Source: the human T2T-CHM13v2.0 reference genome, Homo sapiens
DNA: 64,000 bases
Direction: 5' to 3'
NCBI GenBank assembly: GCA_009914755.4
Contig: CP068257.2
Coordinates: forward strand, 26,528,001 to 26,592,000
In this document: positions 4,418 to 35,419 of the stretch, in pieces
How positions within the stretch are numbered: position 1 is the stretch's first letter
Layout of the letters: every line of letters starts with the position of its first letter
Program-made: the position numbers and the translations under genes
Notes under the pieces: generated by a model
The model's input: the letters and a program-made list of their open reading frames with translations, nothing else
Told to the model about the DNA's origin: nothing
Database searches by the model: none

Positions 4418-4418
<1 letters not shown>

Positions 4419-10729: not shown

Positions 10730-11553
<824 letters not shown>

Positions 11554-14960: not shown

Positions 14961-16236
14961 CAAAAACCAAAAATGCTATTGGAGTAGTCTGTATAATTGA
15001 AAAATATATATATACTTATATTTATTTTGGAGGGAGTTGTATTCGTTGTACAACTGCTAAATAAGGAAAGATTTTGAGTTGGTCTCACTTCAGTAAAAGA
15101 CTCACTTACCTGGATGTTTATCTGATATGTGGCCAAGTGTCTGAAGAGTTAGACAAGATAAAAATCACAAGAACACACGTTTGTGGTTGAATATGGATAG
15201 TTGCCATCTGACTGTAATAATGAATAGAAATCAGAGTTTTGCTACCAGGTACTCTGCTCGTAGTAATCACAGTAGTTTGTATGTGTACAATGATGAATAG
15301 TGTTGTAGTTGTTGGCATTATTCTTATTCGGATGTTGCTGTGTATTGACTGTCACATTGTATCAGAGGACTAGCTTCTATGTATAGTGTGTAGTATAATG
15401 TTTGAGACTAAAATGATTCTAAAGAGCACCAATGTGTTTCTACCATTCAAGAAACCTTTTTTTTTTCTTTGCGTCTGTGAGACATATGAGAAAATCAATA
15501 AATTTACTTTCTTGGAAAAATAAACACTTCCTATGTAAACAAACATAGACCTTTAGAGCAGTATAAATTGTTTGTGAAAATAGTTTAATTGCAGCAAACA
15601 CACAGAAAGGATTAACTTATTTTCAGATTTGGTAGTTGCTACTGTGCATGTCTTTTTTTCTTTTAATCTACACCAAGAAACCCAGATTCAAATGCTTAGT
15701 ATTATACAATATTTGGTAGTTTTTATTTTTGATCAAATCTTTAAAAGCAAGAAATTTTTAGAAGGCACAAAAAGCACAAACTGTAAAAGAAGAAAACAAA
15801 AACAAAAAAATGACGTTAGTCTTAATCAAACTTAAAGATTTCTTCTCTTTGTAACATGCTGTTAAAAATGAAAGCCTCAGACTAGGACAAACTATATTCA
15901 ATACATCTCAAATATATTTGACAATGCACTTGTATCTATAATGTATAAAGAGCCCTTAAAATTCAATAAGAAGACAAAACAAGTTTCTTTTTAAATGGAC
16001 AAAGATTGTAAAAGACAGTTCACAAAGATAACAAATAAGAAACAAACAAGCCTATGAAAATAAGTTCAACAACATTATCCATCTGATAAATGAAAATAAA
16101 AATCTAAATGAGATAATACCACAGACCTATTAAGATAGTTAAAGTTAAAAAGATTGACAATACCACATGTGAGTAAGCATATAAACAACTAGATTTCTCA
16201 TACATTGCTAGTGAGAATGTGAAATAGTATAATCAC

Positions 16237-18352
16237 TGACATTGTTTAGTTCTGTGTCCTCACCCAAATCTCGAACTGTAATCCCCATGTATCAAAGGAG
16301 GACCTGGTAGGAGGTGTTTGGATCATGGGGACAGTCTCCCCCATGCTGTTCTTATGATAGTGATTGAGTTCTCATGAGATCTGATGGTTTTATAAGGGGC
16401 TCTTCCCCCTTCACTCACTCTCTCTCCTGCCACCATATAAGACGTGCCTGCTACCCCTTCCTCCATGATTTTAAGTTTCCTGAGGCCTCCCCAGCCATGC
16501 AAAACTGTGAGTCAATTAACCCTCTTTTCTTTATAAATTACGCAGTCCCAGGCAGTTCTTTATAGTAGTGTAAAAACAGACTAATATAGAGAAATTTGTA
16601 CCAGGAGTGGGGCACTGCTATAAAGATACCTGAAAATGTGGAAGCGACTTTGGAACTGGGTAATAGGCAGAGGTTGGGAACAGTTTGAGAGAACTCATTG
16701 GGAAATGGAGCAAAGGTTGCTCTTGCTACACTTTAGCAAAAACACTTGCAGCATTTTGCTCCGGCCCTAGACATCTGTGGAACTTTGAAATTGAGAGAGA
16801 TGATCTGAAATTGGAACTTATACTTAAAAGGGAAACAGAGCATAAAAGTTTGGAAAATTTGCAGCCCGACCCTATGTTACAAAAATAAAAAGCCATTTTC
16901 TGTGCAGAAATTCACCTGGCTGCAGAAATTTGCATAAGTAATGAGGAGCTGAATGTTAATAGCCAAGACAATGGGGAAAATGTCTCCTAAGGGCCTGTAA
17001 GAGACCTTCACAGTAGCCCCTAATATCACAGGCCTGGAAGCCAAGGAGGGAAAATTGGTTTTGTGGGCAAGGCCCAGGGCCTACTTCTTTGTGCAGTATC
17101 CCAACTTGGTGCCCTGTGTCCCACCCACTCTAGCTCTAGCCATGGCTAAAAGGGGACAAGGTAACACTTGAGCCATTGCTTCAGAAGGTGCTATCGATAA
17201 GCCTTGGTCTCCATGTGATGTTGGGCCTAGGCGTGCACAGAATTCAAGAATTGAAGTTGAGAAACCTCCACATAGATTTCAGAGAATGTATGGAAATGCC
17301 TAGATGTCCAGGCAGAAGTCTGCTGCAGGGGAAGAGCCCTCATGGAGAGTCTCTGCTAGGGCAGTGCAAAAGGGAAATGTGGAATTGGAACCCCCACACA
17401 GAGGCCCCACTGGGGCATGCCTAATGGATCTGTGAGAAGAGGGCCATCATCCTCCAGATCCGAGAATGGCAGATCCACTAACAACTTGGACTATGTGTGT
17501 GGAAAAGCTGCAGACACTTAATGTTAGCCCAGAAAGCAGCTGCAGGAGCTGTACCCTGCAAAGCCACAGGGGCAGAGCTGCCCAAGGATGTGGGTGCCCA
17601 CTCCTTGCATCAGCATCCTCTGGATGTGAAACATGGAGTCAAAGTAGATTATTTCAAAGCTTTAAGATTTAGTGATTGCCCCATAGGATTTCTGACTTGC
17701 ATGGGACCTGTAACCCCTTTGTTTTGGTCAATTTCTCCCATTTGGAATGGGAGAATTTATCCAATGCCTGTACTCTTTTGGAAGCAACTAAATTGTTTTG
17801 TATTTGTATCTTGGAAGTAACTAACTTGTTTCTTATTTTACAGGATTATAGGCAGAAGGAACTTGCCTTGTCTCAAAAAAGGCTTTGGACTTGGACTTTT
17901 GAGTTAATGCTGAAATGAGTTAAGACTTTGGGGGACTGTTGAGAAAGCATGATTGTGTTTGAAATGTGAGGACATGAGATTTGGGAGGGGCCAGGGGCAG
18001 AATTATATGATTGGGCTCTGTGTCTCCACCCAAATCTCATCTCTAACATGTTGGAGGAGGGACCTGAGGGGAGGTAATTGGATCATGGGGGCCATTGCCC
18101 CCATGCTGTTCTCATAATAGTGAGTAAATTCACATGAAATCTGATGGTTTTATAAGGAACATTTCCCCCTTTGCTTGCTCTCTCTTTTTCCTGCCATCAT
18201 GTATGACATGCCTGCTTCCTCTTTGGCCATCATTGCAAGTTTCATGAGGCCTCCCCAGCCATGCAGAACTGTGATTCAATTAACCCTCTTTTCTTTATAA
18301 ATGACCCAGTTTCAAGAAGCTCTTTATAGCAGTGTGAAAATGGACAAATACG
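16237..18352 (+). mobile_element. Complete THE1-family ERVL-MaLR element (5' LTR ~16237-16588, internal ~16589-18005, 3' LTR ~18006-18352)
   Basis: Both LTRs contain ..GTGTCC/TCACCCAAATCTC..GGAGGTAATTGGATCATGGGG..GATCTGATGGTTTTATAAGG..GAGGCCTCCCCAGCCATGCA/GAACTGTGA..TTTCTTTATAAAT..; internal begins ..TTTGTACCAGGAGTGGGGCACTGCTATAAAGATACCTGAAAATGTGGAAGCGACTTTGGAACTGGGTAATAGGCAGAGGTTGG and ends ..GAAATGTGAGGACATGAGATTTGGGAGGGGCCAGGGGCAGAAT as in THE1-int. Confidence 0.8.
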
Positions 18353-18597
18353 ACCACTTTGGAAAAAGAGTTTTGTAGTTTTTTTTTTAAAAGTTAACTA
18401 TGCTGGTATACAAAACACCTAACCCAACTGGAGCAAATATGACACTTCTAGTAGTTATACATAAGAATTAAGGGGAAGAGGAAGTTAAAGAGTGGTTGAT
18501 TCATGGGTACTAATATACAGTTTGATAGAGGAAATAAGACAGTGTTTGATAAATCAGTGACTATAATTTATAATTATTTTATATATCAAAATTGCTT

Positions 18598-18908
18598 GTA
18601 GAGAATAATGCAAATGTGCCTAGCATAAAGAAAAGACAAATATTTCAGGCAATGGATGTATCCCAATTACATCTGCAAATTTCCTGTTACCATGGTAACA
18701 TATTCACCGGTTTCTGGGATTAGGATATGGACATTTGGCAAGGAGGAGGCATTATTCTGCCTACCAAACATGTATGTAACCATTAAGATTTGGGGTCATA
18801 TTTACTGTTACAGCATAGCCTAGCCTATTGTGATTAATAGAGAATAATGCAAATGTGCCTACCATAAAGAAAAGACAAATATTTAAGGCAATGGATGTAC
18901 CCAATTAC
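18598..18908 (+). repeat. About 72-bp direct repeat (18598-18667 and 18838-18908) flanking a 5'-truncated MaLR-LTR-like fragment (18668-18837)
   Basis: agagaataatgcaaatgtgcctagcataaagaaaagacaaatatttcaggcaatggatgtatcccaattacat repeated with ~4 mismatches; enclosed segment atctgcaaatttcctgttaccatggtaacatattcac..ggattaggatatggacat..gtaaccattaagatttggggtcatatttactgtta recurs at 21776-21950. Confidence 0.6.
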
Positions 18909-19171
18909 ACTGATTTGATATTTATCAAATGCAAGAAGTTTACGTGAATTAACTTATTACATGTATTTCGAAAATATTTACATCTATTATGTATCAATAA
19001 AAAATAAAATTTTAAAAATAGTTGTGAGGAGTTTAGTCATCTGGAGCGTGGCTGTGTTTTGTAATGAGGATGTAATAATGAAATAAGGATAATGAGATAT
19101 ATTGAGAATTTTGGGGTAGATCAACATGATAGAACCACCATTTGCTTCAAAAGTTACTGTATGTATTTTTA

Positions 19172-19219
19172 TTTTTATTTTTTTGAGACGGAGTCTCTCT
19201 CACTCTGTTGCCCAGGCTC
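19172..19219 (-). mobile_element. Extremely 5'-truncated Alu insertion (~35 bp of Alu 3' end plus poly-A) with TSD
   Basis: tttttatttttatttttttGAGACGGAGTCTCTCTCACTCTGTTGCCCAGGCTC flanked by direct repeats (c)aagttactgtatgtattttta at 19149-19171 and 19220-19240. Confidence 0.8.
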
Positions 19220-20991
19220 AAGTTACTGTATGTATTTTTATATACATTTTTAGGGTATACTTTTTACAAAGACCACTGGGATTTATTTTATATTTTGGAA
19301 TAAACAAAAGTAGTTCTATTCTCAAATGTATAACTAATTTGTTTAGGATCTATTTTAGGTTGCTTAACTCTTTGGCATGAGTTTGCTTTTGTGTAAAATA
19401 GGTATTTTAACATATTTCTTATCTTACAGAGTAATTGTAAAGGTGAAATAACATGCTGGATATGTAACTGGCTTGAAAATTATAAAATGTTGATTAAATG
19501 CAAACTATTGTATTCAAACAACTATTAATTTTATCAATTTCATTTATATGATTATTAAGAATATTAAAAGGTCTAAAATAATTAAATCTAACTGTGGTCA
19601 TTTGCCATTATTAATTATTAGGTAATAGACACCATAATGACTAAATAACTCAATCTGTAGAAATAAAAGAGGAATAGATATTACTTATATACTTTTGAAA
19701 ATGTTTGCTTTGGCTTTATTCCAGTCATCCTGGAAAATAATTCTGCATAGGGTAAAGTTGCAAAGATTACTGAAAATCTGCTTTTTTAAGTGCTTCAGGA
19801 CTGTTTTTCTTTAAACCCTAACACTTATTTTATAAATACTCCCTTGGTCACAAGAGGTAATAATTATTGCAATAATAGTTTTAAGTTCTGTAATATATAC
19901 CATATGAGAAAACAGGATGTGTCAAAAACAGAAATCTCTTCAAGAGGTGAATGCTAGATCACCCTTTTGAAATCATGCTTCAATAGTTATCCATATGCTT
20001 TAGAGAAAAATTTGGCAAGTTTATTAAAATCAGTGGGATAGAGTCACCTAATTTCAGATATGCTGAACTAGACATTGTAGTTTGCCAATTATATTAAATT
20101 ATAATTAGTAAAAATAACAATGCTTTAAGGTTTGGGCAAAATCCAAAGACTCACAAATGTTGAAATAACAAAACTGGAGATTGAACATGAAAATGGTTCT
20201 CAAATTATAACAATGAATTATGAATTACATTGTTCAGGTTTTACTCAAATGGAAACTCTTTGGCTGCTTTTAGATACTGATTTTTTAGTAAATAAAGTGT
20301 TTAACTAAAGAGTTTTGAAAAACCTGGGACACATTTACCATCTTACTATAAACCCAGCTGATTAAGACATTAATTTTTGAGGTAATAAATATATGTAGCA
20401 TAGAACCCTTCTCTAACACCTAACACATATTATGTCCTATACCTATCTATTTAAATGTCCATTTATTCTTATACAACTGTGCACTCCAAAGAAAGGACTG
20501 GTGTTCTATTCATCTTTGTATCTCTATTCCCAGAAAAAGTTCAATAAGTGCCATAATCCCAAGTGTAAATAATGTAAATCAACAGCCATTTCTAAGCTTG
20601 AAGGTTTGGTGCTGAACACTTTACACATATTACCTAATTGTATCTTCATATAAATGCTATGAAATATTTAATGGTTTTTCTAATTATTTATAATGATGAC
20701 AGGTAAGCATAAATATTACATATTCACTTCAGATTAAACTTTAATACTATATTTAACATCTATATTTTAAAAATCAGCATAATGAACACTGTGGAAAAAT
20801 AGTTACATTTTAATAGGTAAAATTAAAAGTAATGGCAAAAACCACCATTACTTTTATACCAACCTACTATATGATTCTGAGAAAATCAACTTAATGAAAT
20901 ATTTCAGAAAGTAGAGAAAAGACATCAGAAAGATCAAATTCTAAAGGATAATACAAAAGGCAAAGGAATGCAGATCAATTCTAAGAAAAGT

Positions 20992-21275
20992 GGCTGGGCA
21001 TGGTGGCTCATGCCTGTAATGTGAGCAGTTTCAGAGGCTGAGGTGGGAAGATTACTTGCCATGAGTTCAGGGCCAGCCTGGGCAGTCTAGTGAAACCCTT
21101 CCTTTATAAAAAAAATTAAAAATAAGCCAAGTGTGGTGATGTGTACCTGTAGTACCAGCTACACAGGAGGCTAAAGCAAGTGGATCGATTGAGCCAAGAA
21201 CTTCGGGGCTGCAGTGAGCTAGGATTGAGCCACTGCATTCCAGCCTGGGCAACACAGTGAAGCCCTGTCTAAAAT
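20992..21275 (+). mobile_element. Alu element (older, diverged)
   Basis: GGCTGGGCATGGTGGCTCATGCCTGTAATGTGAGCAGTTTCAGAGGCTGAGGTGGGAAGATTACTTGCCATGAGTTCAGGGCCAGCCTGGGCAGTCTAGTGAAACCC..CACTGCATTCCAGCCTGGGCAACACAGTGAAGCCCTGTCT. Confidence 0.85.
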
Positions 21276-21469
21276 TAAATTAAATTGAAATATATAAAAT
21301 AAAATAAAATCATAAATTACTACTGGAAGAAAAACAATCAGACATGTATTTGTGTTGTAATCTTCATAAGAATAAACTTCCTGTATTTGTTTTCAGTTGT
21401 TCCTATAACAAATTATCATAAATCTATAGTGAGTTAAAAATACAAAAAAAAAAAAAAAAAAACCCCACA

Positions 21470-21955
21470 TTATTATCTAACAGTTCTGGAGGACACCAAA
21501 AGTACAAACAGTTCTCACAGAGCTAAAATCAAGATGATGGCCTATCTGCATTGTCTCTGAAGACTTTAGAGGACAAGATGTTCCTTGATTTTTACAGCTT
21601 CTAGAGGCTGCCCACATCTTAATTCATGAGCACATTCCTCCAACCTCTGCTTCTATAACCACATACACTTCTTGACTTTGACCTTCCCATCTCCCTCTTA
21701 GGAGGATCCTTGTGACTATAGTGGGGCTACCCAGGTATGCCAGGATAATCTCTTCATCTCAAGATTCTTAACTTAATCACATCTGCAAATTTCCTGTTAT
21801 CATGGTAACATATTCACAGGTTTCTAGGATTAGGATATGGACATCTTTGGCAAGGAGGAGGCATTATTCGGCCTACACATATTTATGTAACCATTAAGAT
21901 TTGGGGTCATATTTACTGTTAAAGCATAGCCTACTCTATTGTGATTAACAAACTA
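21470..21955 (+). mobile_element. MaLR-type LTR (MLT1/MST-like)
   Basis: CAGTTCTGGAGGACACCAAAAGTACAAACAG..TTCTAGAGGCTGCCCACATCTT..CTTAACTTAATCACATCTGCAAA..CACAGGTTTCTAGGATTAGGATATGGACATCTTTGG..; preceded by an A21 run (21446-21467). Confidence 0.55.
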
Positions 21956-23485
21956 ATCAAGTTTTATTCACCAAAATGTCAACATGAAAATCTTTGTAGA
22001 TATGCAATGGCTCAAATATGCTATGATTATTCCCCCTCTTAAAAACATACAATTGAAAACATACCTTTTTATTTGAGAAATAAACAAAAATTTCCAACTC
22101 AATACTGTAGCCATGGTTTAAATGGACTTATCAGGCATGGACCTCAAATTTAAGAACTGGTGTGCAACAGCTCACCCAATTTTTCTTTTACTGCTTTTGT
22201 TTCAGTCCCCACACCAAGAGTATACTTGCTAGAACATATTCCTCTGTTCATAATTTTCCCTGACTTTCTTATTTTGACAAGTATGAAAGAACAAACAGCT
22301 GGTGTGTTCTAGACTCAGAATTGCTAGATCGAATTTGGCCTTTCAAATGGTTGACAGAACATTCTTTTGAAGAATTTCTAAATAAAAATTGTCATTCTTT
22401 TTCCTCTCAGTGTTTTATGAGGCAACATAATGACTATCTACTTTGTTGAAGAACCTAGAGGTAATATTCTGCATGTTCAAATCCTATGGTAAATTTCCTG
22501 CTCACTGAGTTACAGTCATCGTCAAAATACTGAAATCTGTGGCAGCTATCATATGTTCTTTTATTATTATCTTTCCACATATTTGCTTCTGTTACCATAT
22601 TGGTCAGAGCACGTTAACTACTTTAGCAAACAACTCCAAGTCTTATTGGTTTCAGACAATTTAGCTTTACTGCTAGTTCATGTCATGGTCTGAAGCAGAC
22701 TGGCACTATGGGAGTATGTACCAGTGAGCTTAGCCAGCCATAATAAGTACCACAGATGGGGGAGCTTAAACAATAGAACATTATTTTCTTACAGTTCTGG
22801 AGGATTAGAAATTCAAGACAAAGATGCTGGTCAATTTGATTTCTAATGAGGGCTCTCTACTTGGCTTATAGACAGTTGCCTTCTCACTATTTGACGTGTC
22901 CTCAATGGTGGAGAGAAAGACAGAGAGAGAGAGATCTCTTTTTCCCTTTTCTTTTGTTATTCTTATTATTAATTTTTGTGGTTATATAGTAGGTGTATAC
23001 ATTTACGTGGTACATGAGATGTTTCAATACAAGCATGGAATGTGAAATAAGCACTTATGAAGAATGGGATATCCATTCCCTCAAGCATTTATCTTTTCAG
23101 TTACAAAAAATCCAACTATACTCTTTATTTGAAAATGTATAATTGTTATTATTGACTATAGTCACCCTATTGTGCTATCAAATAGAGGTCTTATTCATTC
23201 TAATTTTTGTACCCATTAACCATCCCCACCTCCCCCTAAATCCCGCAGTACCCTTCCTAGCATCTGGTAACCATCCTTCCACTCTCTGTGTTCATGAGTT
23301 CAATTGTTTTGATTTGTATATCCCATAAATAAATGAGAACATGTGATGTTTGTCTTTCTGTGCCTGGCTTATTTTACTTAATATTATGATCTTCAGTTCC
23401 ACCCATGTTGTTGCAAATGACAGGTTCTCATTCTTTTTTTAAATGGCTGAATAGTGCTCCCTTGTTTATAAGTACTACATTTTCT

Positions 23486-23941
23486 TTATCTATTCCTCTG
23501 TTGATGGACACTTAGGTTGCTTCCAAATCTTAACTCCTGTAAACAGTGCTGCAACAAACATAGGAATGCAGATTCTCTTTGATATACTGGCTTCCTTTCT
23601 TTTGGGTATATACTCAGCAGTGGTATTGCTGGATCATATGGTACCTCAATTTTTAGTTTTTTTGAGGAATCTCCAAACAGTGCTCCATGGTGCCTGTACA
23701 AATTTACATGACTACGAACAGTGTACAAGGATTCCTTTTTCTCCACATTCTCACCAGCATTTGTTATTGCCTGTCTTTTGAAGATAGGCCATTTTAACTG
23801 GGGTGAGGTTATATGTAATTTGTAGTTTTGATTTGCATTTCTTTGATGATCAGTGATGTTGAGCACCTTTTCATATCTATGTTTGCCTTTGTATGTCTTC
23901 TTTGAGAAATTCCTATGAAAATATTGTGCCCACTTTTTCAT
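23486..23941 (-). pseudogene. L1 ORF2 C-terminal domain relic
   Basis: 151-aa ORF with L1 ORF2 C-terminal similarity; no intact full-length ORF2. Confidence 0.8.
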
Positions 23942-24271
23942 TGAATTACTAGATTTTTTACTACAGAATTCCAGATCTAGAGGATAGGCTTTCAGTTATT
24001 CCCCATTCTTTATGATAACTAGCTGTGAGTCCGTAGAATATGGCTTTAATTATGATGAGGTATGTTTCTCCTATCCCCATTGATAGTGAATGGTCTTTCT
24101 AATGTATGGTTGCATTTGGTTTGCGAGTATTTTGTTGAGTATTTTTGCATCAGTATTCATCAGATGTATTGGTCTGTAGTTTTCTTTTTTTGATGTGTCT
24201 TTGTCTGGATTTCATATCAGGGTAATCTGGGCCTCATGGAATGAGTTTGGAAGCATTTCCTCCTCTATTTC

Positions 24272-24496
24272 TCAGAATAATTTGTGTAACATTGGTATTA
24301 GTTCTTCCTTAAATGTTTGGTAGAATTCAGCAGTGAAGCCACCAGGTACCGGGCTTTTCTTTACTGGGGGACCTTTTATTAGAGCTTCAATCTCATTACT
24401 TGTTATTGGTCTGTTCAGGTTTTGGATTTCCTTTTGGTTCAATCTTGGTAGGTTGCATGTGTCTAGGAATTTGTTTATTTCTTCTATATTTTTCAA
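24272..24496 (-). pseudogene. L1 ORF2 (between EN and RT, [11 protein letters not shown] motif) relic
   Basis: 74-aa ORF nearly identical in pattern to L1 ORF2 segment [50 protein letters not shown]. Confidence 0.85.
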
Positions 24497-25299
24497 TCCA
24501 TTGGTATATATTTGCTCAGAGTAGCCATTAATGATCCATTGAATTCCTGCAGTATGAGTTGTTGTGTCTCCTTTTACATTTCTGATTTCATTTGAAACTT
24601 ATCTTTTTTTCAGTTAATCTGACTAAAGGTTTGTCAATTTTGCTTAGGGTTTCAAGGAAGCAACTTTTTGTTCCATTGATCTTTTTTGTTCTTTTTTTCA
24701 TTTCAATTTTATTTCTTTCTGCTCTGATCTTTATTATTTATTTTCTTCTACTACTTTTGGGTTTGTTTTGCTCTTGATTTTCTAGATCTTTAAGATGCAT
24801 TGTCAGATTGTTTATTTTTCTTCTTTTCTTATAAGGCCACCAATTCTATCACATTAGGGCCTCACCCTAATCTTAATTACCACCTAAAGACCTATTTCCA
24901 AATACAGTCCCTATGGGGGTTAGGGCTTTAACATATAAATTTGATGGGGGTGGGGGTAAGTGACAACATTTAGTCTATAGTGGAGTGAAAGGGTCTACTC
25001 CATTAGAGTTTAAATTCTGGCTCCTTAATGTTTGTATTATCTACCATTTTCTCAGACATCAGAACTCTTTACTACATCCTCATCATTGTCTGCAGTAAAG
25101 GGATGTGGAGCACCATGGGATGGCCCAGAAGAATTTAGATCCTACCTGAAAGCAGTGTGTGCCACTTTAACCCACTACATAAGTCTGGCTAGAACCCAGA
25201 CTTATGGCCACACAAGAAATTCAGTTGAGAAATTCAGTTTAGACATGGAACCAAGTAGAGAAGAGAAAATAGGCATTGATGTATACCGGCAGTCTCTGC

Positions 25300-26530
25300 T
25301 TCCATAACTCTTCTTTAAAAATATGTATATTTAGGAAGCCACTAAAAAAACTATCAGAACTAAGAAATGAACTCAACAAGCTTGCAGAGTATAAAGCAAT
25401 AAACAAAATAAATTTTATTTCTATTGATGAATAAGTAACAAAATTAAGAAGATAATCCCATTAAGAATAACATAAAAATAATAAAATCTTTAGGAATGAA
25501 TTTCATTAAAAAAATTCAAAATGAATACAGAAAAATCAACTGTATTTCTACACACTAGAAATGGGCAATCTAAAATGAAATGACAAAAATGATTTTATTT
25601 TCCATACCATCAAAAAGAATAAAATACTTAGGAATAAATGTAAAAAAGAAGTGCAAAATAAATATTGTAAAAACTACTGAACACTGTTGATGAAAACTGA
25701 GAAACATCTAATTAGAAACACTCATGTTCATGGATCACAAGACAATATTGTGAAGAATGGCAATACATTTCAAATTGACCTACAGATTCAGCAAAATGTC
25801 GATCAAAGTAACTTATGGCTTTTTTGCAGAAATTGACAGGCTAATCCTAAAATTCACATGAAAATTTAAAGGTAGCCAAAACAATCTTGAAAAAGGAGAA
25901 CAAAGTTAAAGGAGTTTCACTTTTTCATTTCAAGACTTATTTCAAAGCTACAGTCATCAAGACAGTGCTGTAGTGGCATAAGAATAGACAAATACATTAA
26001 TATAATCTAATTAAGAGTCCAGATGTAAACCCTTACAATTTGCAGCCAATTTATTTCAAACAAGGATCCCAACACAATTCAATGGGGAGAATAACAGACA
26101 TTTCAGCAAAAGGTATCTACATGCAAAAGAATGAATTTGGTCAGCTTCCTTATATTTCAAGTGGATGAAATCTAAATATAAAAGCTATAAAATTCTTGAA
26201 AGGAAACATAGGCATACATCATGATTTGAGGTAAAAAAAAGAAAAAATGATAATTTGAACTTTATGAAAATTGAACTTTCGAGTTGCAAAAGAATATCAT
26301 CAAGAAAATGAACAGTGGTCCATTTTTCACTGCTCCATGTGCTCTGTTGCAGGAGATCAAGATAACTCCACCACAGCGTCTGTCACCCTGTGACCAACAG
26401 GTAGCCAAAACAATCTTGAAAAAGGAGAACAAAGTTGGAGGGCTTCTACTTTTTACTTTCAAATCTTACTGCAAATCTACAGTAATCAAGACAATGTGGT
26501 ACTGGAAGCAGGGAAATGATGGCCAACTAG
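25300..26530 (+). mobile_element. Old L1 (L1M-like) ORF2 fragment, sense, with a ~40-bp segment repeated 530 bp apart
   Basis: Frameshifted translation ..KFKGSQNNLEKGEQS..FQSYSHQDSAVVA..NPYNLQPIYFKQGSQHNSMGRITDISAKGIYMQKNEFG.. matches mammalian L1 ORF2 ..[77 protein letters not shown]..; gtagccaaaacaatcttgaaaaaggagaacaaagtt at 25869 and again at 26401. Confidence 0.65.
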
Positions 26531-27187
26531 AGACAAAAGATGCAAGCTTCCCTCAGAAAGATCAAAATTATAAGTGAATGGTCATTCCAGGAGTGGAAAG
26601 CTGAGGAAAGAGTGCTGAAACCTGTCAGACAACCCATGGGAAGAAGCTGGAGTGCAGAAAGGGAAGGCAGCAAGAATCTGGCAGAGATTGGACTCCAGGG
26701 AACCTGGAGTCCCATGCAAAGGATAGGGGTGGGTATTCTTTTCTCTCCTCTCCCCTGCAACAAACTGCTGACCACTGAATTGTCCAGGAGCCTCTCTGCC
26801 CTCTTGAGCCCAGGACTCAAGGACTACTGTCCTTGACAATTTGCGAGCTTCCTGGGGGCAGAGCACCAGGTGACCAGCTCCTGCAAGTGCACTAGCACTC
26901 CGTCATACCCAAATTGAGGCAGCAGACACTGTACTGGTTGTGCCTCCATCAAGGACAACTACCTGGGGAATCTCAGGGTTGCCTTATCCCCAGATGCCCC
27001 ACAAATGTTCTCCAGAATCTGCTCTGGCTTTGGCAGTCATGGGGGACCAGTGATTCCCTGGAGATCTAGCCCTTAGGATGGACAGCCCCTAGGGGAGGGG
27101 AGCGTGCCTCACCAAATCCCCCTTGGGATAAAGGAATCACAGCATAGTGCAGTTCTCCCAAGAGGGGAAGCATTGTTCTGTCCCAGC

Positions 27188-27547
27188 TGTACTAGTTTGT
27201 TCTCACACTGCTAATAAAGACATGCCTGAGACTGGGTGATTTATGAAGGAAACTGGTTTAATTTGACTCACAGTTCCACATGGCTGGGGATGCTCCACAA
27301 TCATGGCAGAAGGTGAATGAGGAACAAAGTCACGTCTTACATGGAGGTAGGCAGGAGAACATGTGCAGGGGAACTCCCCTTTATAAAACCATCAGATCTC
27401 ATAAGACTTATTCACTATCACAAGAACAGCATGGGAAAAACACACTTCCATGATTCAATTACCTCCAGCCAGGTCCCTCCCACAACACGTGGGGTTATTA
27501 CAATTCAAGGTGATATTTGGGTGGGGACACAGAGGCAAACCATATCA
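27188..27547 (-). mobile_element. Solo THE1/MST-type MaLR LTR with 5-bp TSD CCAGC, nested in the L1 5' region
   Basis: Reverse complement of TGATATGGTTTGCCTCTGTGTCCCCACCCAAATATCACCTTGAATTGTAATAACCCCACGTGTTGTGGGAGGGACC..GATCTGATGGTTTTATAAAGGGGAGTTCCCC..TGTGAG.CAAATTAAACC..GCAGTGTGAGAACAAACTAGTACA; flanks ..tgtcCCAGC | LTR | CCAGCagac.. Confidence 0.85.
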
Positions 27548-29473
27548 CCAGCAGACAAGCAGCACTAGTGGCTGGGAGCAGACATGGAGAGGGTACCACC
27601 TCTTACTCCCTCACACTGCTGCAGACACAGCTGAGGCCTTTCCTGCTGGGGGCTGGCACAAGTGCGCTTAGAGACAGCCTTTCCAGTGCTATTCATGGCT
27701 GCTGCACCCAGGTTGAAAGTGTGCTTGTGGTCCTGGGTGTCAGGAAGTGTAGGATAATCTCCTGCTCCCTACACCAAGTGGCAGCATTCCTGCCATCGAG
27801 GGCAGCTTCAGAGCTCCTTTTTTTTTGGATTGGGGGGAAGGTGTTCTGCCCTGAGTCCATGTCAGAGGTAGCCACAAGAGGGGCATTTCCCACAGACCTC
27901 AGATGCATTGAGGCCCAGAGAGAAAGGACAGGGTATATCTAAACTGAAGTTCATGAGCCCTATTCACTAACAGGGGCCTGATAGTGAACTAAATCATGTT
28001 TCTTCCTGCTCAGGACAAAGAGCTGAGACAGCCCCTTCTCTCTCACCCCAGACCTCAGTGCCTCCCACCAAGAACTTCCTCTGCTATCCTGTCGGGGTGG
28101 GTGCTTCCACTCATCATCAGTGTTCCCGATGGCAAGCTAACCCTTGCTCTTAAATCACCACCTACTGGACTGGAGACCAAACTGCAATACCAAATAAAAA
28201 CCTTGCTGACAGAAGGCCACAGTACCAGGGTACAAAAGAAGCTTCCTGAGACACCTGCATTCCCAGCCCCACAGAAGATAGTGAGTCAGCTCATCCACCC
28301 AGTACATAGCTACAACAAGTAGAATTTGAGGAAGCCATGAGGCAAAAGCTATCTATAACAAATGAACCCACACAGAGCCTTGGTCCCCTGAAAGCACCCA
28401 GAAACAAAGCCAAATGATCACATACAACATACATTACAGTCAGCCCCTCAAGGGAGAAACATTTTTTTTAAAGTCCCAATTAAATGATAGCAATTCCAAA
28501 AATAAGAAGTGACAGCTTCTTCAGATGAGAAGAAATCAGCACAAAAACTCTTGACAATACAAAAAGACAGAGTATTTCAACACCCCCAGGGAACTATGCT
28601 AGCTCTATGGCAATGGATTCTAACCAAAATGAAACTTCTAAAATGGCAGATAAAGAATTCAAAATGTGAATTGTAAGGAAGCTCAGTGAAATCCAAGAGA
28701 AAGTTGAAAACCAACAGAAATAAACCAAAAAGGCAATTTAGGATATGAAAGATGTGATAGATATAGGTTAAAAAAAAGAAAAAAAAAACAGAACCTCTAG
28801 AAATGAAAAATTCAGTGAAGAAATTTCAACTTACAATTGAAAACTTTAACAACAGATTAGAACAAGCAGAAGAAAGAAATGAAGAGCTTAAAGACCAGTC
28901 TTTTGAATTAACCCAGTCAGACAAAAGTAAAGAAAATTGAATTTAATTAAATGAACAAAGACTTTGAGAAATATGGGATTATGTAAAGTGACCAAACCTA
29001 TGATGTGTAGGCATTTCTAGGAGAGAAGGGCATTATATAATAATAAAACATTGAAAACAACAAGCAGATTCAACCATCTTAAATAGATAAGCACCCAACC
29101 CTGGAGCACATGGATTCATAATACAAATACTATTACATCTAAGAAAAGAGATAGATGGCAATACAATAATACTGGAGAATTTCAACATTTCACTGACAGC
29201 ACTAGATAGATCACAGAGACAGTAAATCAACAAAAACAAAAACAACAAAAACCTCTGGACTTACACTGTACTCTAGACCATATGGACCTAATATTCATTT
29301 GCAGAACACTCAACCCAACAAACACAGAATATACATTTTTCCCATCTGTGCATGGAACATTCTACAAAATTCATTGTATGCCTGGCCATAAAGCAAGTCT
29401 CAATAAATTCAAAAAAAATCAAAATCTTATCAAGTATCATCTCAGACCACAGTGCAATTAGAAATCAATACCA

Positions 29474-29611
29474 ATTAGCCAGACGTGGCAGTGCGCACCT
29501 GTAGTCCTAGCTACTTGGGAGGCTGAGGCTTGAACCTGGGAGGCAGAGGCTGCAGTGAGCCAACATCGCACCACTGCACTCCAGCCTAGGCGACAGGGTG
29601 AGACTCTGACT

Positions 29612-29652
<41 letters not shown>
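29474..29652 (+). mobile_element. 5'-truncated Alu (right arm only, internal deletion) with 39-bp poly-A and ~15-bp TSD, nested in L1 ORF2
   Basis: TTAGCCAGACGTGGCAGTGCGCACCTGTAGTCCTAGCTACTTGGGAGGCTGAGGC..GCAGTGAGCCAACATCGCACCACTGCACTCCAGCCTAGGCGACAGGGTGAGACTCTGACTCAAAA(A)n; TSD gaaatcaataccaa at 29461-29474 and 29660-29673. Confidence 0.85.
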
Positions 29653-29653
<1 letters not shown>

Positions 29654-30605
29654 AGAAAAAGAAATCAATACCAAGAGGAATTCTCAAAACTACACAAATA
29701 CATGAAAACTACAACACTTGCTCCTCATTGGCTTTTGAGTAAATAACTAAATTAAGACAGAAATTTTAAAAAAATTAAATGAAAACAGAGATACAACAGA
29801 CCAAAACCTTTGGGATACAGCCAAAACAGTACTAAGAAGAAAGTTTATAGTGTTAATTGCCTATTTTAAAAAGATAGAAAGATTTCAAATTGACAACATG
29901 ATATTGTACCTCAAGGAAACAGAACAACAAGAACAAACCAAATCCAAAGCTAACACAGAAAAGGAATAACAAAGATCAGAGAAGAAGTAAATAAGATTGA
30001 GACCAGAAAAATGATACAAAGAATCAAGAAAATGAAAACTTGGTTCTTCCATAGAATGAAAAAAATTGATAGACCACAAGCTAGATTAACCAAGATAAAA
30101 AGAAAGAAGATTCAAATAAGCACAATAAGAAATGATAAGGGTAATATTACAACTGATAAACTGATACCACAGAAATACAAAAGCTCATCAGAGACTACAA
30201 TGAACATCTCTCCATCTCTACATACACAAAACCAAAAACCGGGAGTAAATGGATAAATTTCTGGAAATATATCAACCATCAAGAATGAATCAGAAATAAA
30301 TAAATATCCTGAACAAACTAATAATGATTAATTAAATTCCAACAGTTATATAAAATCTCTCAACAGAAAAGCCTAGGACCAGATGGATTCATAGCTGAGT
30401 TTTACCAGATGTCAAAGAGGAGCTGGTACAAATATTTCTGAAAGTATTCCAAAAAATTGAGGAGAAAGGCTCCTCCTTAATGCATTCTATGAAACCAGTA
30501 TCACCAGATAACAAAATCACTCAAAAACACAACAGAAAAGATAACAATAAGCCAATATCCCTGATGAACATACATGCAAATATTCTCAACAAAATTCTAG
30601 CAAAC

Positions 30606-32900
30606 TGTATTCGTACATTTTCACGCTGCTGATAAAGACATACCTGAGACTGGGAAGAAAGAGAGGTTTAATTGGGCTTGCAGTTCCACATGGCTGGGGA
30701 TGCCTCAGAATCATGATACAACAGATCATGGTGGGAGGTGAAAGGCACTTCTTACATGGCGATGGTAAGAGAAAATGAGAAACATGGTAAGCAGAAACCC
30801 CTGATAAAACCATCAGATCTCGTGAGACTTATTCACTATCATGAGAACAGTATTGAGGAAACTGCTTCCATGATTCAGATTATCTCCCAAGGGATCCCTC
30901 CCACAACATGTGGGAATTATAGGAGTACAATTCAACATGAGATTTGGGTGGGGACACAAAGCCAAACCATATCGTTTTACCCCGACCCCTCCAAATCTCG
31001 TGTCCTCACATTTCAAAACCAATCCCTGCCTTTCCAACAGTCCCCCAAAGCCTTAACTCATTTCAGCATTAACCCAAAATTTCACAGTCCAATGTCTCAT
31101 CTGAGACAAGGCAAGTCTTTTCAGCCTATGAGCCTGTAAAATCAAAAGCAAGCTAATTACTTTCTAGATACAATGGTGGTACAGGTATTGGGTAAATACA
31201 GCCATTCCAAATGGGAGAAATTGGCCCAAACAAATGGGCTACAGGGCCCATGCCAGTCCAAAATCCAGCGAGGCAGTCAAATTTTAATGCTCCAGAATGA
31301 TCTCCTTTGACTCCAGGTCTCACATCCAGGTAATGCTGATGCAAGAGGTGGGCTCCCATGGTCTTGGGCAGCTCTGCCTCTGTGGCTTTGCAGGGTACAG
31401 CCTCCCTCCCAGCTGTTTTCATGGGCTGGAGTTGAGTGTCTGTGGCTTTTCCAGGTGCACCGTTCAGGTGGATCTATCATTCTGGGGTCTGGAGGCTGGT
31501 GGTCCTCTTTTCACAGTTCCACTAGGTGGTGCCCTAGTAGGAACTCTGTGTGGGGGCTGCAACTCCACATTTCTCTTCTGCACTGCCCTAGCAGAGGTTC
31601 TCTATGAGAGCCCCACTCCTGCAGCAAGCTTCTGCCTGGGCATCCAGGTACTTCCATACATCTTCCAAAATCTAGACAGAGGTTCTCAAACCCCAATTCT
31701 TGACTTCGTTGCACCTGCAGGCTCAACACCATGTGGAAGCTGCCAAGCCTTGGGGCTTCCACCTTCTGAAGCCACAGCCTGAGCTCTACATTGGCCCCTT
31801 TCAGCCATGCCTGGAGCAGCTGGGACACAGGGCACTAAGCCCCTAGAGTGCACACAGCACAGGGACCCTGGGCCCTGCCCACAAAACCATTTTTTCTTCC
31901 TAGACCTCTGGGTCTGTGATGGGAGAGGCTGCAACAAATGTCTCTGACATGCCCTGGAGCTATTTTCTCCATTGTGGCTTGGGGATTAACATCAGGCTCC
32001 TCATTACTTATGCAAATATCTGCAGCTGGCTTGAATTTCTCCTCGGAAAATGGAATTTTCTTTTCTATCACATTGTCAGGCTGCAAATTTTCTGAACTTT
32101 TATGTTCTGCTTCCCTTTTAAAATCGAATGCCTTTAATAGCACCCAAGTCACCTCTTGAATGCTTTGCTTCTTAGAAATTTCTTCCATCAGATACCCTAA
32201 ATCATCTCTCTCAAGTTCAAAGTTTCACAAATCTCTAGGGCAGGGGCAAAAATGACACCAGACTCTTTACTAAAAAATAACAAGAATCACCTTTGCTCCA
32301 ATTCCCAACAATTTTCTCATCTCCATCTGAGACCACCTCAGCCTGGACTTTATTGTTCATATCACTATCAGGCTTTTAGTCAAAGCCATTTAACAAGTCT
32401 CTAGGAAGTTTTACACTTTCCCACATCTTCCTGTCTTCTTTTGAGCCCTCCAAACTGTTCCAACCTCTGCCTCTTACCCAGTTCCAAAGTCACTTCCGCA
32501 TTTTCAGGTACATTTTCAGCAACACTCCACTCTACTGCTACCAATTTACTGTATTAGTCCGTTTTCATGCTGCTGATAATGACATGCCCAAGACTGAGAA
32601 GAAAAAGAGGTTTAATTGGACTTAGAATCCCACATGGGGAGTCCTTAGAATCATGGCGGGAGGTGAAAGGCACTTCTTACATGGCAGCAGCAGGAGAAAA
32701 TGAGAAGGATGCAAAAGCAGAAACCCCTGATAAAACCATCAGCTCTCGTGAGACTTATTCACTACCATGAGAATAACAGAAGGGAAACTGCTCCCATGAT
32801 TCAAATTATCTGTCACCAGGTCTCTCCCACAACACATGAGACTTATGGGAGTACAATTCAAGATGAGATTTGGTTGGGGGCTCAGAACTAAACTATGTCA
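30606..32900 (-). mobile_element. Complete THE1-family ERVL-MaLR element (3' LTR ~30606-30974, internal ~30975-32549, 5' LTR ~32550-32900), inserted into L1 ORF2 with 5-bp TSD CAAAC
   Basis: LTRs are reverse complement of the THE1 LTR; internal region is reverse complement of THE1-int (..CCATTCCAAATGGGAGAAATTGGCCCAAACAAATGGGCTACAGGGCCCATGCCAGTCCAAAATCC.. vs the + copy at 17600-17770); L1 ORF2 reading frame [20 protein letters not shown] is split exactly at the insertion; flanks ..agCAAAC | element | CAAACcaaat.. Confidence 0.85.
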
Positions 32901-35419
32901 CAAACCAAATCCAACATTACATGAAAAAGAAATACATCACAATCAAGTGGGTTTTTTTCCAGAGATGCAAGGATAGTTCAACATACACAAATCAATAAAT
33001 GTGATTCACCATATAAACAGAATTTAAAACAAAAACCACATAATCATCTCAATAGATGCAGAAAAAGCATTCAATAAAATCCAACTTCTCTTCAGATATA
33101 AACACTCATCACATACAAATCAGTAGAACTTACCTTGAAATAATAAGGGCCATGTATAACAAAAACCACAGCCAAGATCATTCTGAATATGGAAAAGTTG
33201 AAAACATTCCAAATAAATACCTGGGACAAAAGAAGCCGGTACATTCATACCACTCTTATTCAACATGATATTGGAAGTCCTAGCCAGCGTAATTATGGAA
33301 GAGAAAAAAATAAAAGGTATTCAAATTGGAAAAGAAGGAGTCAAGTTATCTCTGTTTGATGATGACCTTATCTTATAGCTAGAAAACCCCAAAGATTCCT
33401 TCAAAAGACTCCTAGAATTGATAAATGACTGGTAAAGTTTCAGGATACAAAATCAATCTACAAAATCAGTAGTATTTATATACACCAATAATGTTCAGGC
33501 TGAGAGCAAAATCCAGAATACAATCCCATTTACATGAGCCACAAAAAAAATTACCTAGAAATATATTTCACCAAGGAGATGAAAGAGTTCTACAAAGCAA
33601 ACGGCAAAACACTGATGAAAGTAACCATACTTGGAACAAACAAATGTGAAAACATCCCATGTTCTTGGGTTGGAAGAATCAATATCATTAAAATCATCTT
33701 ACTGCCCAAAGCAATATACAGATTCAATTTTATTCCTTTTAAATTACCAACGTCATTTTTTGCAGAATTAGAAAAAAAATCCTAAAAATCATATAGAACC
33801 AAAAAAAAGAGCCCAAATAGCTTAAACAATCCTGAGCAAAAATGGACTAAGCCAACAACATCACATTACCTGACTTCAAATTATACTACAAAGATATAGT
33901 AACCAAAACAGCAGGGTACTGAAACAAAAATAGACACATAGACAAATGGAACAGAATAGAAAATCCAGAAATAATGCCACATACCTACAACCAACTGATC
34001 TTCAACAGAGATGACAAAAATAAACAATGTAGGAAGAACACCCTATTCAATAAATGGTGTTAGAAAAATTGGTTAGCTATATGCAGAAGAATGAAACTAG
34101 ACCCCTATCTCTCACCATATACAAAAGTTAATTCAAGGTCGATTAAATACTTTAATGGAAGATCAGAAACTATAAAAATCCTAGAAAAAAATCAAGAAAA
34201 AACTTCTCCGGACATTGCCTTAGGCAAAGAATTTATAACTAAGCCTTCAAAAGCAAATGCAAGAAAAATAAACAAAAGAAATTTAATTAAACTAAAAGGA
34301 TTCTGCACAACAAAAGTACTAATTAACAGAGTAAATAAATGAGCACCCTACAGAATGCGAGAAAAAATTTGCGAATTATACCTCTGATGAATGACTAATA
34401 TCCAACAACTCAATACCAACTCAACAAGAAAAAAACAAATAACCCCATTAAAAAATGGACAAAGGAAATGAACAGACATTTCTCAAAAGAAGACATACAG
34501 GCAGTCAACAAACATATGAAAATATAATCAGCATTACTAATCATCAGATAAATGCAAATTAAAACCATAGTAAGATACCATCTTACAGCAGTAAGAATGG
34601 CTATTATTAAAAGTTAAAAAAAAACAGATATTGGCATGGATGCAGAGAAAAGGTAATGCTTATACACAGTTATGGGAATGTAAATTAGTAAAACCTCAAT
34701 GGAAAACAGTATGGAGACTTTTCAAAGAATTAAAAATAGAACTACTAGTCAACCCAGCAATCCTACTATTCGGTTCTACCCAAAGTGAAATAAATCATTA
34801 TATCAAAAAGACACCTATATTAGTATGTTTATTGCAGTGCTATACTCAATAGCAAAGTCTTGAAATCAACCTAAATGTCTCTCAATGGTTGGTTGGATAA
34901 AGAAAATGTCTCACACCATGGAATGTACACACACCATGGAATAATATACAGCCATTAAAAAGAATAAAATCATGTAATTTGTAGCAACATAGGTGGAACT
35001 GGAAGCCATTATCCTAAGTGAAATAACTGAAAAATATAAATTTAAATATTACATATTCTTAGAATTTGGATCTGAACAATGGGTACAAATGGACATAAAG
35101 ATGAAAAAAATATACATTGGGGACTCTAAAATGGGGCAAAATGGGAGACGGAATGAGGGTTAAAAAATTACCTATTGGCACAGTGTTCACTATTTTGGTG
35201 GTGGGTACTCTAGAAGCCCAAACTTCACCATTACACAATATATTCATATAACAAACCTGTACATGTATCCCCTAAAGCTAAATTTTTTTTAAAAAGAATT
35301 ATTTATTTAAAAAAAGAAAATGAAAAGAACAACTACAAACCAAATGGGATAAAATATTTTCAAATTATATATAATTCAAAATATGTAAATAATATATAAA
35401 CTGACTTCCCAATTTATTC

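What the first reader, a model, noticed from the sequence alone, without database searches (positions are those of the whole stretch)
16237..32900. Two complete THE1-family MaLR elements in inverted orientation ~12 kb apart, plus two solo LTRs of the same family
A full + copy (16237-18352) and a full - copy (30606-32900) share ~2.1 kb of homology, visible as homologous relic peptides in the ORF track (17497..17820 + versus 31153..31422 -: AVPCKAT.AELPK..GAH.LHQH.LDV..GVK.D..ALKF......GF.T.MGPV..LF..ISPIWNG.IYP.PV). Inverted homologous repeats of this size are substrates for non-allelic homologous recombination (NAHR) producing inversion of the intervening ~12 kb. The - copy sits inside L1 ORF2 with a CAAAC TSD, giving a relative age order (L1 older than THE1). 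Additional THE1/MST solo LTRs at 27188-27547 (-) and 60568-60902 (-).
Basis: partly seen in the sequence, partly recalled or inferred. Interest (0 to 1): 0.5.

Follow-up and report, generated by a model that had tools for sequence, protein, structure and literature searches.

The report
Two old, diverged THE1/MST retrotransposon relics
Two dead primate LTR retrotransposons really do lie in opposite orientation 12 kb apart, but they come from different subfamilies and are now only about 75% alike, so they are ordinary genomic fossils and not a credible trigger for an inversion.

Summary
A + strand LTR-internal-LTR element (16237-18352) and a - strand one (30606-32900) lie 12,253 bp apart. Both have TG..CA-type LTR ends and 5-bp target-site duplications, and neither encodes a recognisable protein domain. 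The - copy sits in the reverse-transcriptase region of an L1 ORF2 (CAAAC duplication confirmed). Solo LTRs lie at 27188-27547 and 60568-60893.

The recombination interpretation fails. The copies are 74.9% identical over aligned columns (64% counting gaps). Their longest shared exact run is 22 bp, which is what chance gives at that identity. No 200-column window exceeds 80%, and no PRDM9 13-mer is present.

The two elements belong to different subfamilies. By comparison with 79 independent copies recovered from host-contaminated metagenome contigs, the - copy is THE1A-type and the + copy is an older THE1D/MSTA-grade type. Intact duplications, collinear host L1 flanks and 33:6:1 LTR site patterns show no A x B exchange since insertion (roughly 47-58 My). 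Other inverted pairs in the window (Alu 88.7%, L1 80.5%) are more similar.

This is ordinary, already-known repeat content.

The parts
16237..18352 (+). Element A: near-complete non-autonomous MaLR (5' LTR 16237-16588, internal 16589-18002, 3' LTR 18003-18352). It is an older THE1D/MSTA-grade type and lacks about 190 bp of internal sequence relative to B.
   Evidence: LTR pair 78.8% identical, K2P 0.256. Best match is the data-derived group gA: 84.0% and 79.7%. Internal gaps of 131 and 60 bp relative to B. Each of the three forward frames has 14-30 stop codons.
16232..16236 (+). 5' target-site duplication of A (ATCAC).
   Evidence: Read directly from the sequence. It pairs with ACCAC at 18353-18357, 4 of 5 matching.
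18353..18357 (+). 3' target-site duplication of A (ACCAC).
15933..18657 (+). Old L1 3' ORF2 remnant that hosts A. The L1 parts are about 15933-16236 and 18358-18657, and the insertion point is near ORF2p codon 1150.
   Evidence: With A removed, the joined flanks align collinearly to three other L1 3' pieces in the window (37575-37892/38339-38506, 34418-34706, 23935-23684; E 1e-19 to 1e-25). The 23486-23941 piece encodes L1 ORF2p residues 1070-1191 (E 4e-5). The direct protein match of A's flank is only marginal (E 0.055).
30606..32900 (-). Element B: full-length non-autonomous MaLR of THE1A type (5' LTR 32550-32900, internal 30975-32549, 3' LTR 30606-30974).
   Evidence: LTR pair 82.3% identical, K2P 0.208. 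The 5' LTR carries all four THE1A-versus-THE1B indels; the 3' LTR carries them too, with one obscured by a later ~15-bp insertion. Best match is the THE1A-type consensus gT: 87.7% and 89.8%. No Pfam domain in any forward frame.
30601..30605 (+). Target-site duplication of B (CAAAC on +), left copy.
32901..32905 (+). Target-site duplication of B (CAAAC on +), right copy.
28500..35000 (+). L1 element hosting B (approximate extent). An ORF1 trimerisation-domain remnant lies at about 28854-28982. The ORF2 RT region is interrupted by B near the ORF2p 'ILANRIQ' segment (about residue 545). It is also interrupted by an Alu at about 29473-29662.
   Evidence: Pfam Tnp_22_trimer and RVT_1. PDB L1 ORF2p match at E 2e-65 across the repaired junction. 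Alu similarity.
27188..27547 (-). Solo LTR of THE1B type, with a perfect 5-bp duplication (GCTGG on the - strand at 27548-27552 and 27183-27187).
   Evidence: 89.0% identical to the data-derived gS consensus and 88.5% to the recalled THE1B consensus; no THE1A indels.
60568..60893 (-). Solo LTR of THE1B-like type, with a 40-bp internal deletion and duplication ATAAA/ATAAG.
   Evidence: 84.9% identical to gS.
11265..11549 (-).

Best explanation
These are two independent, long-dead insertions of non-autonomous ERVL-MaLR retrotransposons from the primate THE1/MST lineage. Each landed inside a different older L1 element. A, an older THE1D/MSTA-grade type, inserted first in sense orientation into the 3' end of an L1 ORF2. 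B, a THE1A-type element, inserted later in antisense orientation into the RT region of another L1 ORF2. Each made a 5-bp target-site duplication, as LTR elements do (shown). Each was presumably mobilised in trans by ERV-L proteins, since neither encodes any recognisable protein (inferred from established knowledge of MaLRs). Both have since decayed neutrally. The two solo LTRs are leftovers of LTR-LTR recombination within other copies. The inverted pair has no present role as a homologous-recombination substrate. The LTRs came from sources that were already about 17-20% apart. The internal regions may have been about 93% alike when B arrived (a rough inference), but the whole pair is now about 75% identical, with no identical run longer than 22 bp. 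No exchange between the two has been fixed in this lineage.
For: - Structure: TG..CA-type LTR pairs, 5-bp duplications, a purine-rich tract before each 3' LTR, and a conserved TGG-initiated PBS-like motif 6 nt after the 5' LTR. Total length 2.1-2.3 kb, all frames full of stops, no Pfam domain.
79 full LTR copies fall into three consensus groups. Window LTRs match them at 80-90%: B to THE1A-type gT, S27 and S60 to THE1B-type gS, A to gA. gS is 96.7% identical to my recalled THE1B consensus. B carries the four THE1B-to-THE1A indels listed in PMC10735291. Internal regions have homologues on 13 and 22 stretches of at least 600 bp in external contigs, at 72-86% identity among the best listed.
- Independence: different duplications, different host L1 positions, and subfamily-specific indels.
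- Age: K2P of 0.256 and 0.208 gives about 58 and 47 My at 2.2e-9 per site per year. This is consistent with the simian-only, >40 My activity reported in PMC10735291.
- No recombination potential or history: 74.9% identity, longest run 22 bp against 23 +/- 4 expected by chance, no 200-column window above 80%. No CCNCCNTNNCCNC motif in any copy. 33 informative sites group A5+A3 against B5+B3, versus 6 and 1 for the alternatives. Element-specific indel columns number 29 against 1.
- Literature thresholds.
Against: - No curated repeat library (Dfam/Repbase) was available. Subfamily names rest on consensus sequences I built from contaminant contigs, on indel coordinates quoted in one paper, and on a THE1B consensus recalled from memory.
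- The THE1A-type consensus rests on only four independent copies.
- A's subfamily (THE1D, THE1C or MSTA) is not resolved.
- The identity of the tRNA primer is inconclusive (13-14 of 18 matches to a recalled tRNA-Leu 3' end).
- Rare recombination events with under 50-114 bp of identity are documented for closely spaced repeats (PMC2583991).
Confidence: 0.93

Rival explanations
1. One reading: the two inverted elements are a live substrate for non-allelic homologous recombination, so the 12-kb segment between them is prone to inversion, possibly as a polymorphism.
For: About 2 kb of alignable inverted homology only 12 kb apart. Short distance favours exchange, and events with under 50 bp of matching sequence have been seen for repeats 5 kb apart (PMC2583991). 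The internal regions may have been about 93% alike when B inserted (rough).
Against: Identity is 74.9% (64% with gaps), and the longest identical run of 22 bp is no more than chance gives. There is no PRDM9 motif. There is no gene-conversion tract or chimeric structure, and the duplications and host L1 collinearity are intact after about 47 My. HERV pairs considered for NAHR were screened at >=94% identity. 21 of 22 inversion-flanking L1 pairs are >90% identical, and no LTR pairs were reported among 132 repeat-flanked inversions. Better inverted pairs exist in the same window.
Confidence: 0.02
2. The two copies arose from one insertion followed by an inverted segmental duplication, not from two separate retrotransposition events.
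For: They share LTR-internal-LTR architecture and homologous relic peptides.
Against: Each has its own matching 5-bp duplication (ATCAC/ACCAC against GTTTG/GTTTG). The flanks are different parts of L1 ORF2 (about codon 1150 against about codon 545) and do not extend the homology beyond the LTR ends. The LTRs differ by subfamily-diagnostic indels shared with independent external copies. Cross-element LTR divergence (K2P 0.36-0.47) exceeds the within-element values (0.21-0.26).
Confidence: 0.01
3. An inversion between A and B already happened in the past, and the present arrangement is the recombinant product.
For: None specific. The internal regions were more alike soon after B inserted.
Against: A crossover between inverted copies would leave each element with one A-type and one B-type LTR and with mismatched duplications. 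It would also break the collinearity of each host L1 across the element. All three features are intact. An even number of exchanges cannot be excluded, but that is unparsimonious.
Confidence: 0.01
4. If the region is transcribed as one RNA (for example inside an intron), the inverted copies pair into a long imperfect double-stranded RNA that could be an ADAR editing target.
For: The predicted intermolecular duplex of the best-aligned ~700 nt is -900 kcal/mol, against -299 +/- 8 for shuffled controls.
Against: duplexfold ignores competing local structure and the 12-kb separation. No evidence of transcription is available. The inverted Alu pair at 41.5/47.5 kb pairs more strongly per nucleotide. 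Even if true, this is a generic property of inverted repeats.
Confidence: 0.05

Closest known systems
THE1A (ERVL-MaLR, primate-specific; described in Smit 1993 and PMC10735291)
   Same: Element B has LTRs of about 350-370 bp, a total length of about 2.3 kb, a 5-bp duplication and no pol. Its 5' LTR carries the four structural changes that separate THE1A from THE1B (insertion near 186, deletion near 204, a 10-bp deletion at 226-235, and a net 8-bp loss at 303-312). Its LTRs are 88-90% identical to a consensus of independent THE1A-type copies.
   Different: Nothing of note. The 3' LTR has a private ~15-bp insertion (CATGATCTGTTGTAT-like). The copy is about 10% decayed from its source.
THE1D / MSTA (older simian-specific MaLR subfamilies)
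   Same: Element A's LTRs share the 'GATTGTAAGTTTCCTGAGG' and 'TTTATAGCAG' states of the data-derived group gA (31 external copies). The gA-gT distance (K2P 0.20) and the gA-gS distance (0.14) bracket the published THE1A-THE1D (0.168), THE1A-MSTA (0.218), THE1B-THE1D (0.116) and THE1B-MSTA (0.164) distances.
   Different: The subfamily is not resolved without Dfam. A lacks about 190 bp of internal sequence, and both of its LTRs have a 14-21 bp deletion near LTR positions 38-58.
HERV-mediated NAHR (HERV-H pairs; AZFa HERV15) and L1-pair-flanked inversions
   Same: A pair of retroelement copies a few kb long on one chromosome.
   Different: Those pairs are at least 92-94% identical over at least 2 kb, are enriched in PRDM9 motifs, and have breakpoints in high-identity stretches (PMC4195946). 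Inversion-flanking L1 pairs have a median identity of 97.2%. The pair here is 75% identical, has a maximum identical run of 22 bp, and has no PRDM9 motif.

Membership tests
ERVL-MaLR (THE1/MST) LTR retrotransposon | Paired LTRs of about 350-370 bp with TG...CA termini | tested here: met
   A: 352 and 350 bp, TG...TA(CA>TA) and TT(TG>TT)...CG(CA>CG). B: 351 and 369 bp, TG...CA and CG(TG>CG)...CA. The deviations are single substitutions.
ERVL-MaLR (THE1/MST) LTR retrotransposon | 5-bp target-site duplication | tested here: met
   B GTTTG/GTTTG; A ATCAC/ACCAC; solo 27k GCTGG/GCTGG; solo 60k ATAAA/ATAAG.
ERVL-MaLR (THE1/MST) LTR retrotransposon | Short (~1.4-1.6 kb) internal region with no pol, RT or integrase (non-autonomous) | tested here: met
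   Internal regions are 1414 and 1575 bp. B's three forward frames give no Pfam hit at E<=0.1. All frames of both copies have 14-33 stops.
ERVL-MaLR (THE1/MST) LTR retrotransposon | Primer-binding site after the 5' LTR and a polypurine tract before the 3' LTR | tested here: inconclusive
   A conserved TGGTACCAG.AGAGTGGGG motif lies 6 nt after the LTR in A, B and four external copies. A purine-rich GGGAGGGG..GGGG tract precedes each 3' LTR. The match to a recalled tRNA-Leu 3' end is only 11-14 of 18, so the primer tRNA is not established.
ERVL-MaLR (THE1/MST) LTR retrotransposon | Sequence match to the curated family consensus (Dfam/Repbase) | not testable with these tools
   No repeat library was available, and text searches for the consensus found nothing. 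As a surrogate, consensuses built from 79 external copies match the window LTRs at 80-90%. A THE1B consensus recalled from memory is 96.7% identical to group gS and 88.5% to the 27-kb solo LTR.
ERVL-MaLR (THE1/MST) LTR retrotransposon | High-copy interspersed repeat of primate genomes | tested here: met
At least one contig is labelled a human skin metagenome. The internal regions are also recovered. The window itself carries Alu and L1.
THE1A subfamily (element B) | Four structural changes relative to THE1B: 186ins, 204del, 226_235del, 303_312delinsTT (PMC10735291) | tested here: met
   B 5' LTR: insertion after 183, deletion at 202, deletion of 223-232 (10 bp), net 8-bp loss at 308-315. B 3' LTR: the same 8-bp loss and insertion region, with the 10-bp deletion visible once a private 15-bp insertion is allowed for. 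The coordinates depend on a recalled THE1B consensus.
NAHR substrate (inverted low-copy repeat) | High sequence identity (typically >=90-95%) over the repeat | tested here: not met
   74.9% over aligned columns and 64.3% with gaps. The best 200-column window is 80%.
NAHR substrate (inverted low-copy repeat) | A minimal efficient processing segment of uninterrupted identity (about 134-232 bp in cell culture; 300-500 bp in human meiosis) | tested here: not met
   The longest exact run is 22 bp, equal to the chance expectation of 23 +/- 4.3.
NAHR substrate (inverted low-copy repeat) | Footprints of exchange: gene-conversion tracts, chimeric copies, swapped flanks | tested here: not met
   LTR site patterns are 33:6:1 in favour of each element keeping its own LTRs. 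Indel columns are 29:1. The duplications and host L1 collinearity are intact.
NAHR substrate (inverted low-copy repeat) | Observed inversion alleles in populations | not testable with these tools
   No access to a human reference, HPRC or HGSVC data. The genomic locus of the window could not be identified.

The most novel reading that the evidence does not exclude
The pair may still matter, but not through classical NAHR. One route is a rare microhomology or homeologous-repair inversion of the 12-kb segment. The other applies if the region lies in a transcribed intron: the pair would form a long imperfect dsRNA (predicted duplex -900 kcal/mol against -299 for shuffled controls) that is edited by ADAR or sensed as self dsRNA.
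Probability: 0.05. Interest if true: 0.2.

Novelty: already known. Interest (0 to 1): 0.05.

Why it matters
It matters little beyond correct annotation. THE1/MST MaLR elements are among the commonest LTR repeats of simian genomes, and nested insertions in L1 are routine. The useful outcome is negative. This inverted pair should not be flagged as an inversion-prone architecture, because alignable length alone overstated the risk. Identity, uninterrupted homology and subfamily origin all argue against it. The nesting order (L1, then THE1D/MSTA-grade A, then THE1A-type B) agrees with the published succession of MaLR subfamilies.

Tried and rejected
- Full-text searches for the THE1 LTR consensus as a sequence string found nothing, so no published consensus could be used.
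- The supplement of PMC10735291 gave a distance matrix, but its alignments are images only.
- Average-linkage clustering of 85 LTR copies collapsed into one cluster, as expected for a star-like set of decayed copies. I replaced it with iterative consensus assignment.
- The genome-contig scan for a THE1A-specific 22-mer gave only one contig.
- The first Pfam call on raw references failed because of stop codons. I repeated it with the stops masked.
- BLASTP of A's stitched flank against the L1 ORF at 23.5 kb found no alignment because of frameshifts and masked stops. The link was made at DNA level instead.
- The direct PDB match of A's flank to L1 ORF2p was marginal (E 0.055).
- No metagenome contig matched the window at >=95% identity, so the species and locus remain unidentified.
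- Rfam found only an Alu-derived 7SL match and no structured RNA gene in or between the elements.
- Segmental-duplication and past-inversion origins were considered and rejected (see the rival explanations).

Full report
**Context.** The window is primate DNA. It contains multiple Alu copies (direct-repeat families D2-D4, and a 7SL/Alu Rfam hit at 4127-4243) and several L1 fragments.

**Observation check.** BLAST and repeat finding confirm two LTR-internal-LTR elements.

- Element A lies at 16237-18352 on the + strand. Its LTRs are 16237-16588 and 18003-18352.
- Element B lies at 30606-32900 on the - strand. Its LTRs are 32550-32900 and 30606-30974.
- The termini are TG...CA or single-substitution variants of that.
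- B is flanked by a perfect 5-bp duplication, GTTTG (CAAAC on the + strand). A is flanked by ATCAC/ACCAC.
- The distance between the elements is 12,253 bp.
- The solo LTR at 27188-27547 (-) has a perfect GCTGG duplication.
It has a 40-bp internal deletion and an ATAAA/ATAAG duplication.
- A further, older MaLR LTR fragment lies at 11265-11549 (-).

**Nesting.** With B and one copy of its duplication removed, the + strand reads through as L1 ORF2.

- Pfam RVT_1 scores 37.4 bits against a cut-off of 29.6. An L1 ORF1 trimerisation domain lies upstream, at about 28.85-28.98 kb.
The junction falls near residue 545.
- The claims 'inside L1 ORF2' and 'L1 older than the MaLR' therefore hold.
Its joined flanks align collinearly across the junction with three other L1 3' pieces in the window (E 1e-19 to 1e-25). 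One of those pieces (23486-23941, -) encodes ORF2p residues 1070-1191 (E 4e-5). This places A near ORF2 codon 1150.
- The direct protein match of A's flank was only marginal (E 0.055).

**What the elements are.**

- Neither internal region (about 1.41 and 1.58 kb) has an intact reading frame; each frame has 14-33 stops. B's three forward frames have no Pfam domain. This is the non-autonomous architecture of MaLRs.
- A purine-rich tract precedes each 3' LTR. A conserved TGG-initiated motif lies 6 nt after each 5' LTR, and also in external copies. Which tRNA it matches is unresolved.
- No repeat library was available, so I retrieved independent copies. A 24-nt LTR core hit at least 120 contigs in metagenome assemblies, evidently host contamination, and at least one is labelled a human skin metagenome.
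- 79 of these copies had complete LTRs. They resolve into three consensus groups: gA (31 copies), gS (30) and gB (18).
- Four independent copies (L021, L024, L070, L121) define a fourth type, gT.
- Best matches of the window LTRs: B's LTRs to gT at 87.7% and 89.8%; the two solo LTRs to gS at 89.0% and 84.9%; A's LTRs to gA at 84.0% and 79.7%.
- gS is 96.7% identical to a THE1B consensus that I recalled from memory. That recalled sequence is a lead, not a library.
- Measured in that consensus's coordinates, B's 5' LTR carries an insertion after 183, a deletion at 202, a 10-bp deletion at 223-232 and a net 8-bp loss at 308-315.
- These correspond to the four changes (186ins, 204del, 226_235del, 303_312delinsTT) that PMC10735291 gives as separating THE1A from THE1B. 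The same states occur in the external gT copies.
- B is therefore THE1A-type and the solo LTRs are THE1B-type.
- A belongs to an older grade. The gA-gT distance (0.20) and the gA-gS distance (0.14) bracket the published THE1A-THE1D (0.168), THE1A-MSTA (0.218), THE1B-THE1D (0.116) and THE1B-MSTA (0.164) distances.

**Ages.** Within-element LTR divergence is K2P 0.256 for A and 0.208 for B. This gives roughly 58 and 47 My at an assumed 2.2e-9 substitutions per site per year. A is older than B, in line with the succession of subfamilies and the simian-only, >40 My activity described in PMC10735291.

**The recombination claim.**

- A global alignment of A against B gives 1526 matches, 512 mismatches and 335 gap columns. 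That is 74.9% identity over aligned columns, 64.3% including gaps, and K2P 0.316.
- No 200-column window exceeds 80%, so there is no gene-conversion tract.
- The longest exact shared run is 22 bp. A simulation at this identity and length gives 23 +/- 4.3.
- None of the MaLR copies contains the PRDM9 13-mer CCNCCNTNNCCNC.
- Published requirements are far higher. About 134-232 bp of uninterrupted identity is needed in cultured cells, and 300-500 bp in human meiosis, with rare exceptions below 50-114 bp (PMC2583991).
- HERV pairs examined for NAHR were selected at >=94% identity over >=2 kb (PMC4195946).
- Among 132 repeat-flanked balanced human inversions, 101 had segmental duplications, 22 had L1 pairs (21 of 22 above 90% identity, median 97.2%) and 9 had Alu pairs. 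No LTR pairs were reported (bioRxiv 10.1101/2021.12.20.472354).
- Other inverted pairs in the window are more alike: Alu 41497-41795 x 47442-47735 at 88.7% with a 41-bp run, and L1 23012-23970 x 37602-38566 at 80.5%.

**History.**

- Cross-element LTR divergence (mean K2P 0.40) exceeds what the two ages explain. The LTR sources were therefore already about 0.17 apart, consistent with different subfamilies.
- The internal regions are closer (K2P 0.278), implying sources about 0.05 apart. That suggests roughly 93% identity when B inserted. This is a rough inference that borrows the LTR clock.
- The pair may therefore briefly have been a modest substrate about 47 My ago. No exchange was fixed.
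- Each element keeps its own duplication and its own collinear host L1.
- 33 informative LTR sites group A5+A3 against B5+B3, versus 6 and 1 for the alternatives. 29 indel columns are element-specific against 1.

**Rivals.** An inverted segmental duplication is excluded by the different duplications, the different flanks and the subfamily indels. A past inversion is excluded by the intact flanks. A dsRNA reading is not excluded: the predicted duplex is -900 kcal/mol against -299 +/- 8 for shuffled controls. It is generic to inverted repeats and untestable here.

**Verdict.** The description is accurate, and the annotation as THE1/MST MaLR elements is supported and refined: THE1A-type B, THE1D/MSTA-grade A, and THE1B-type solo LTRs. 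The proposed significance (NAHR-driven inversion) is not supported. This is ordinary, already-known repeat content. Interest is low.

Noticed in passing
window 52567-55290: Another LTR-flanked element. Direct repeats 52567-52879 and 54979-55290 are 87% identical (44-bp exact run). They enclose only about 2.1 kb, which includes a - strand ORF (54217-54582) with a weak integrase zinc-binding domain hit (Integrase_H2C2, E 2.9e-4, below the Pfam cut-off). It is probably an internally deleted ERV provirus, younger than the MaLRs.
   Followed up: partly
window 18599-18909 and 21775-21948: Local low-copy duplication just downstream of element A. 18599-18671 matches 18838-18909 at 96%, and 18665-18837 matches 21775-21948 at 92%. 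That is far more similar than any transposon pair in the window. Its origin was not determined.
   Followed up: no
window 36614-36808 x 37015-37198: A close inverted repeat (91% identical, arms ~190 nt, 206-nt spacer) inside the L1-rich stretch. It is the most hairpin-prone structure in the window.
   Followed up: no
window 15933-18657: Element A is itself nested, in sense orientation, near codon 1150 of an old L1 ORF2.
   Followed up: yes
window 9036-9204, 11020-11222, 59739-60024: Long polypyrimidine/polypurine microsatellites of (CTTC)n/(AAAG)n type. These create the spurious long 'ORFs' at 8952-9284, 10967-11335 and 59581-60237.
   Followed up: partly
window 1-2000: Higher GC (44%) with a strong C-over-G skew (-0.33), unlike the rest of the window. 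Not examined.
   Followed up: no
L121 (CZJV02000147.1, Psychrobacter cibarius assembly), 224-1600: A contig of a bacterial genome assembly (coverage 0.5x) carries a THE1A-type LTR plus MaLR internal sequence, 79% identical to element B over 1.39 kb. This looks like primate (presumably human) DNA contamination in the deposited assembly.
   Followed up: partly
L002 and L058 (metagenome contigs): Two external LTR copies have the THE1A-like 'TTATCAGGGG...TTTTGCATC' segment but lack the 226-235 and 303-312 deletions. They are intermediate between the THE1B and THE1A states, reminiscent of the precursor forms discussed in PMC10735291.
   Followed up: no
L054 (JGIcombinedJ20147_1000202), 25-1533 and 3223-4731: This contig holds two inverted, apparently identical copies of MaLR internal sequence. 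It is possibly a palindromic assembly artefact.
   Followed up: no
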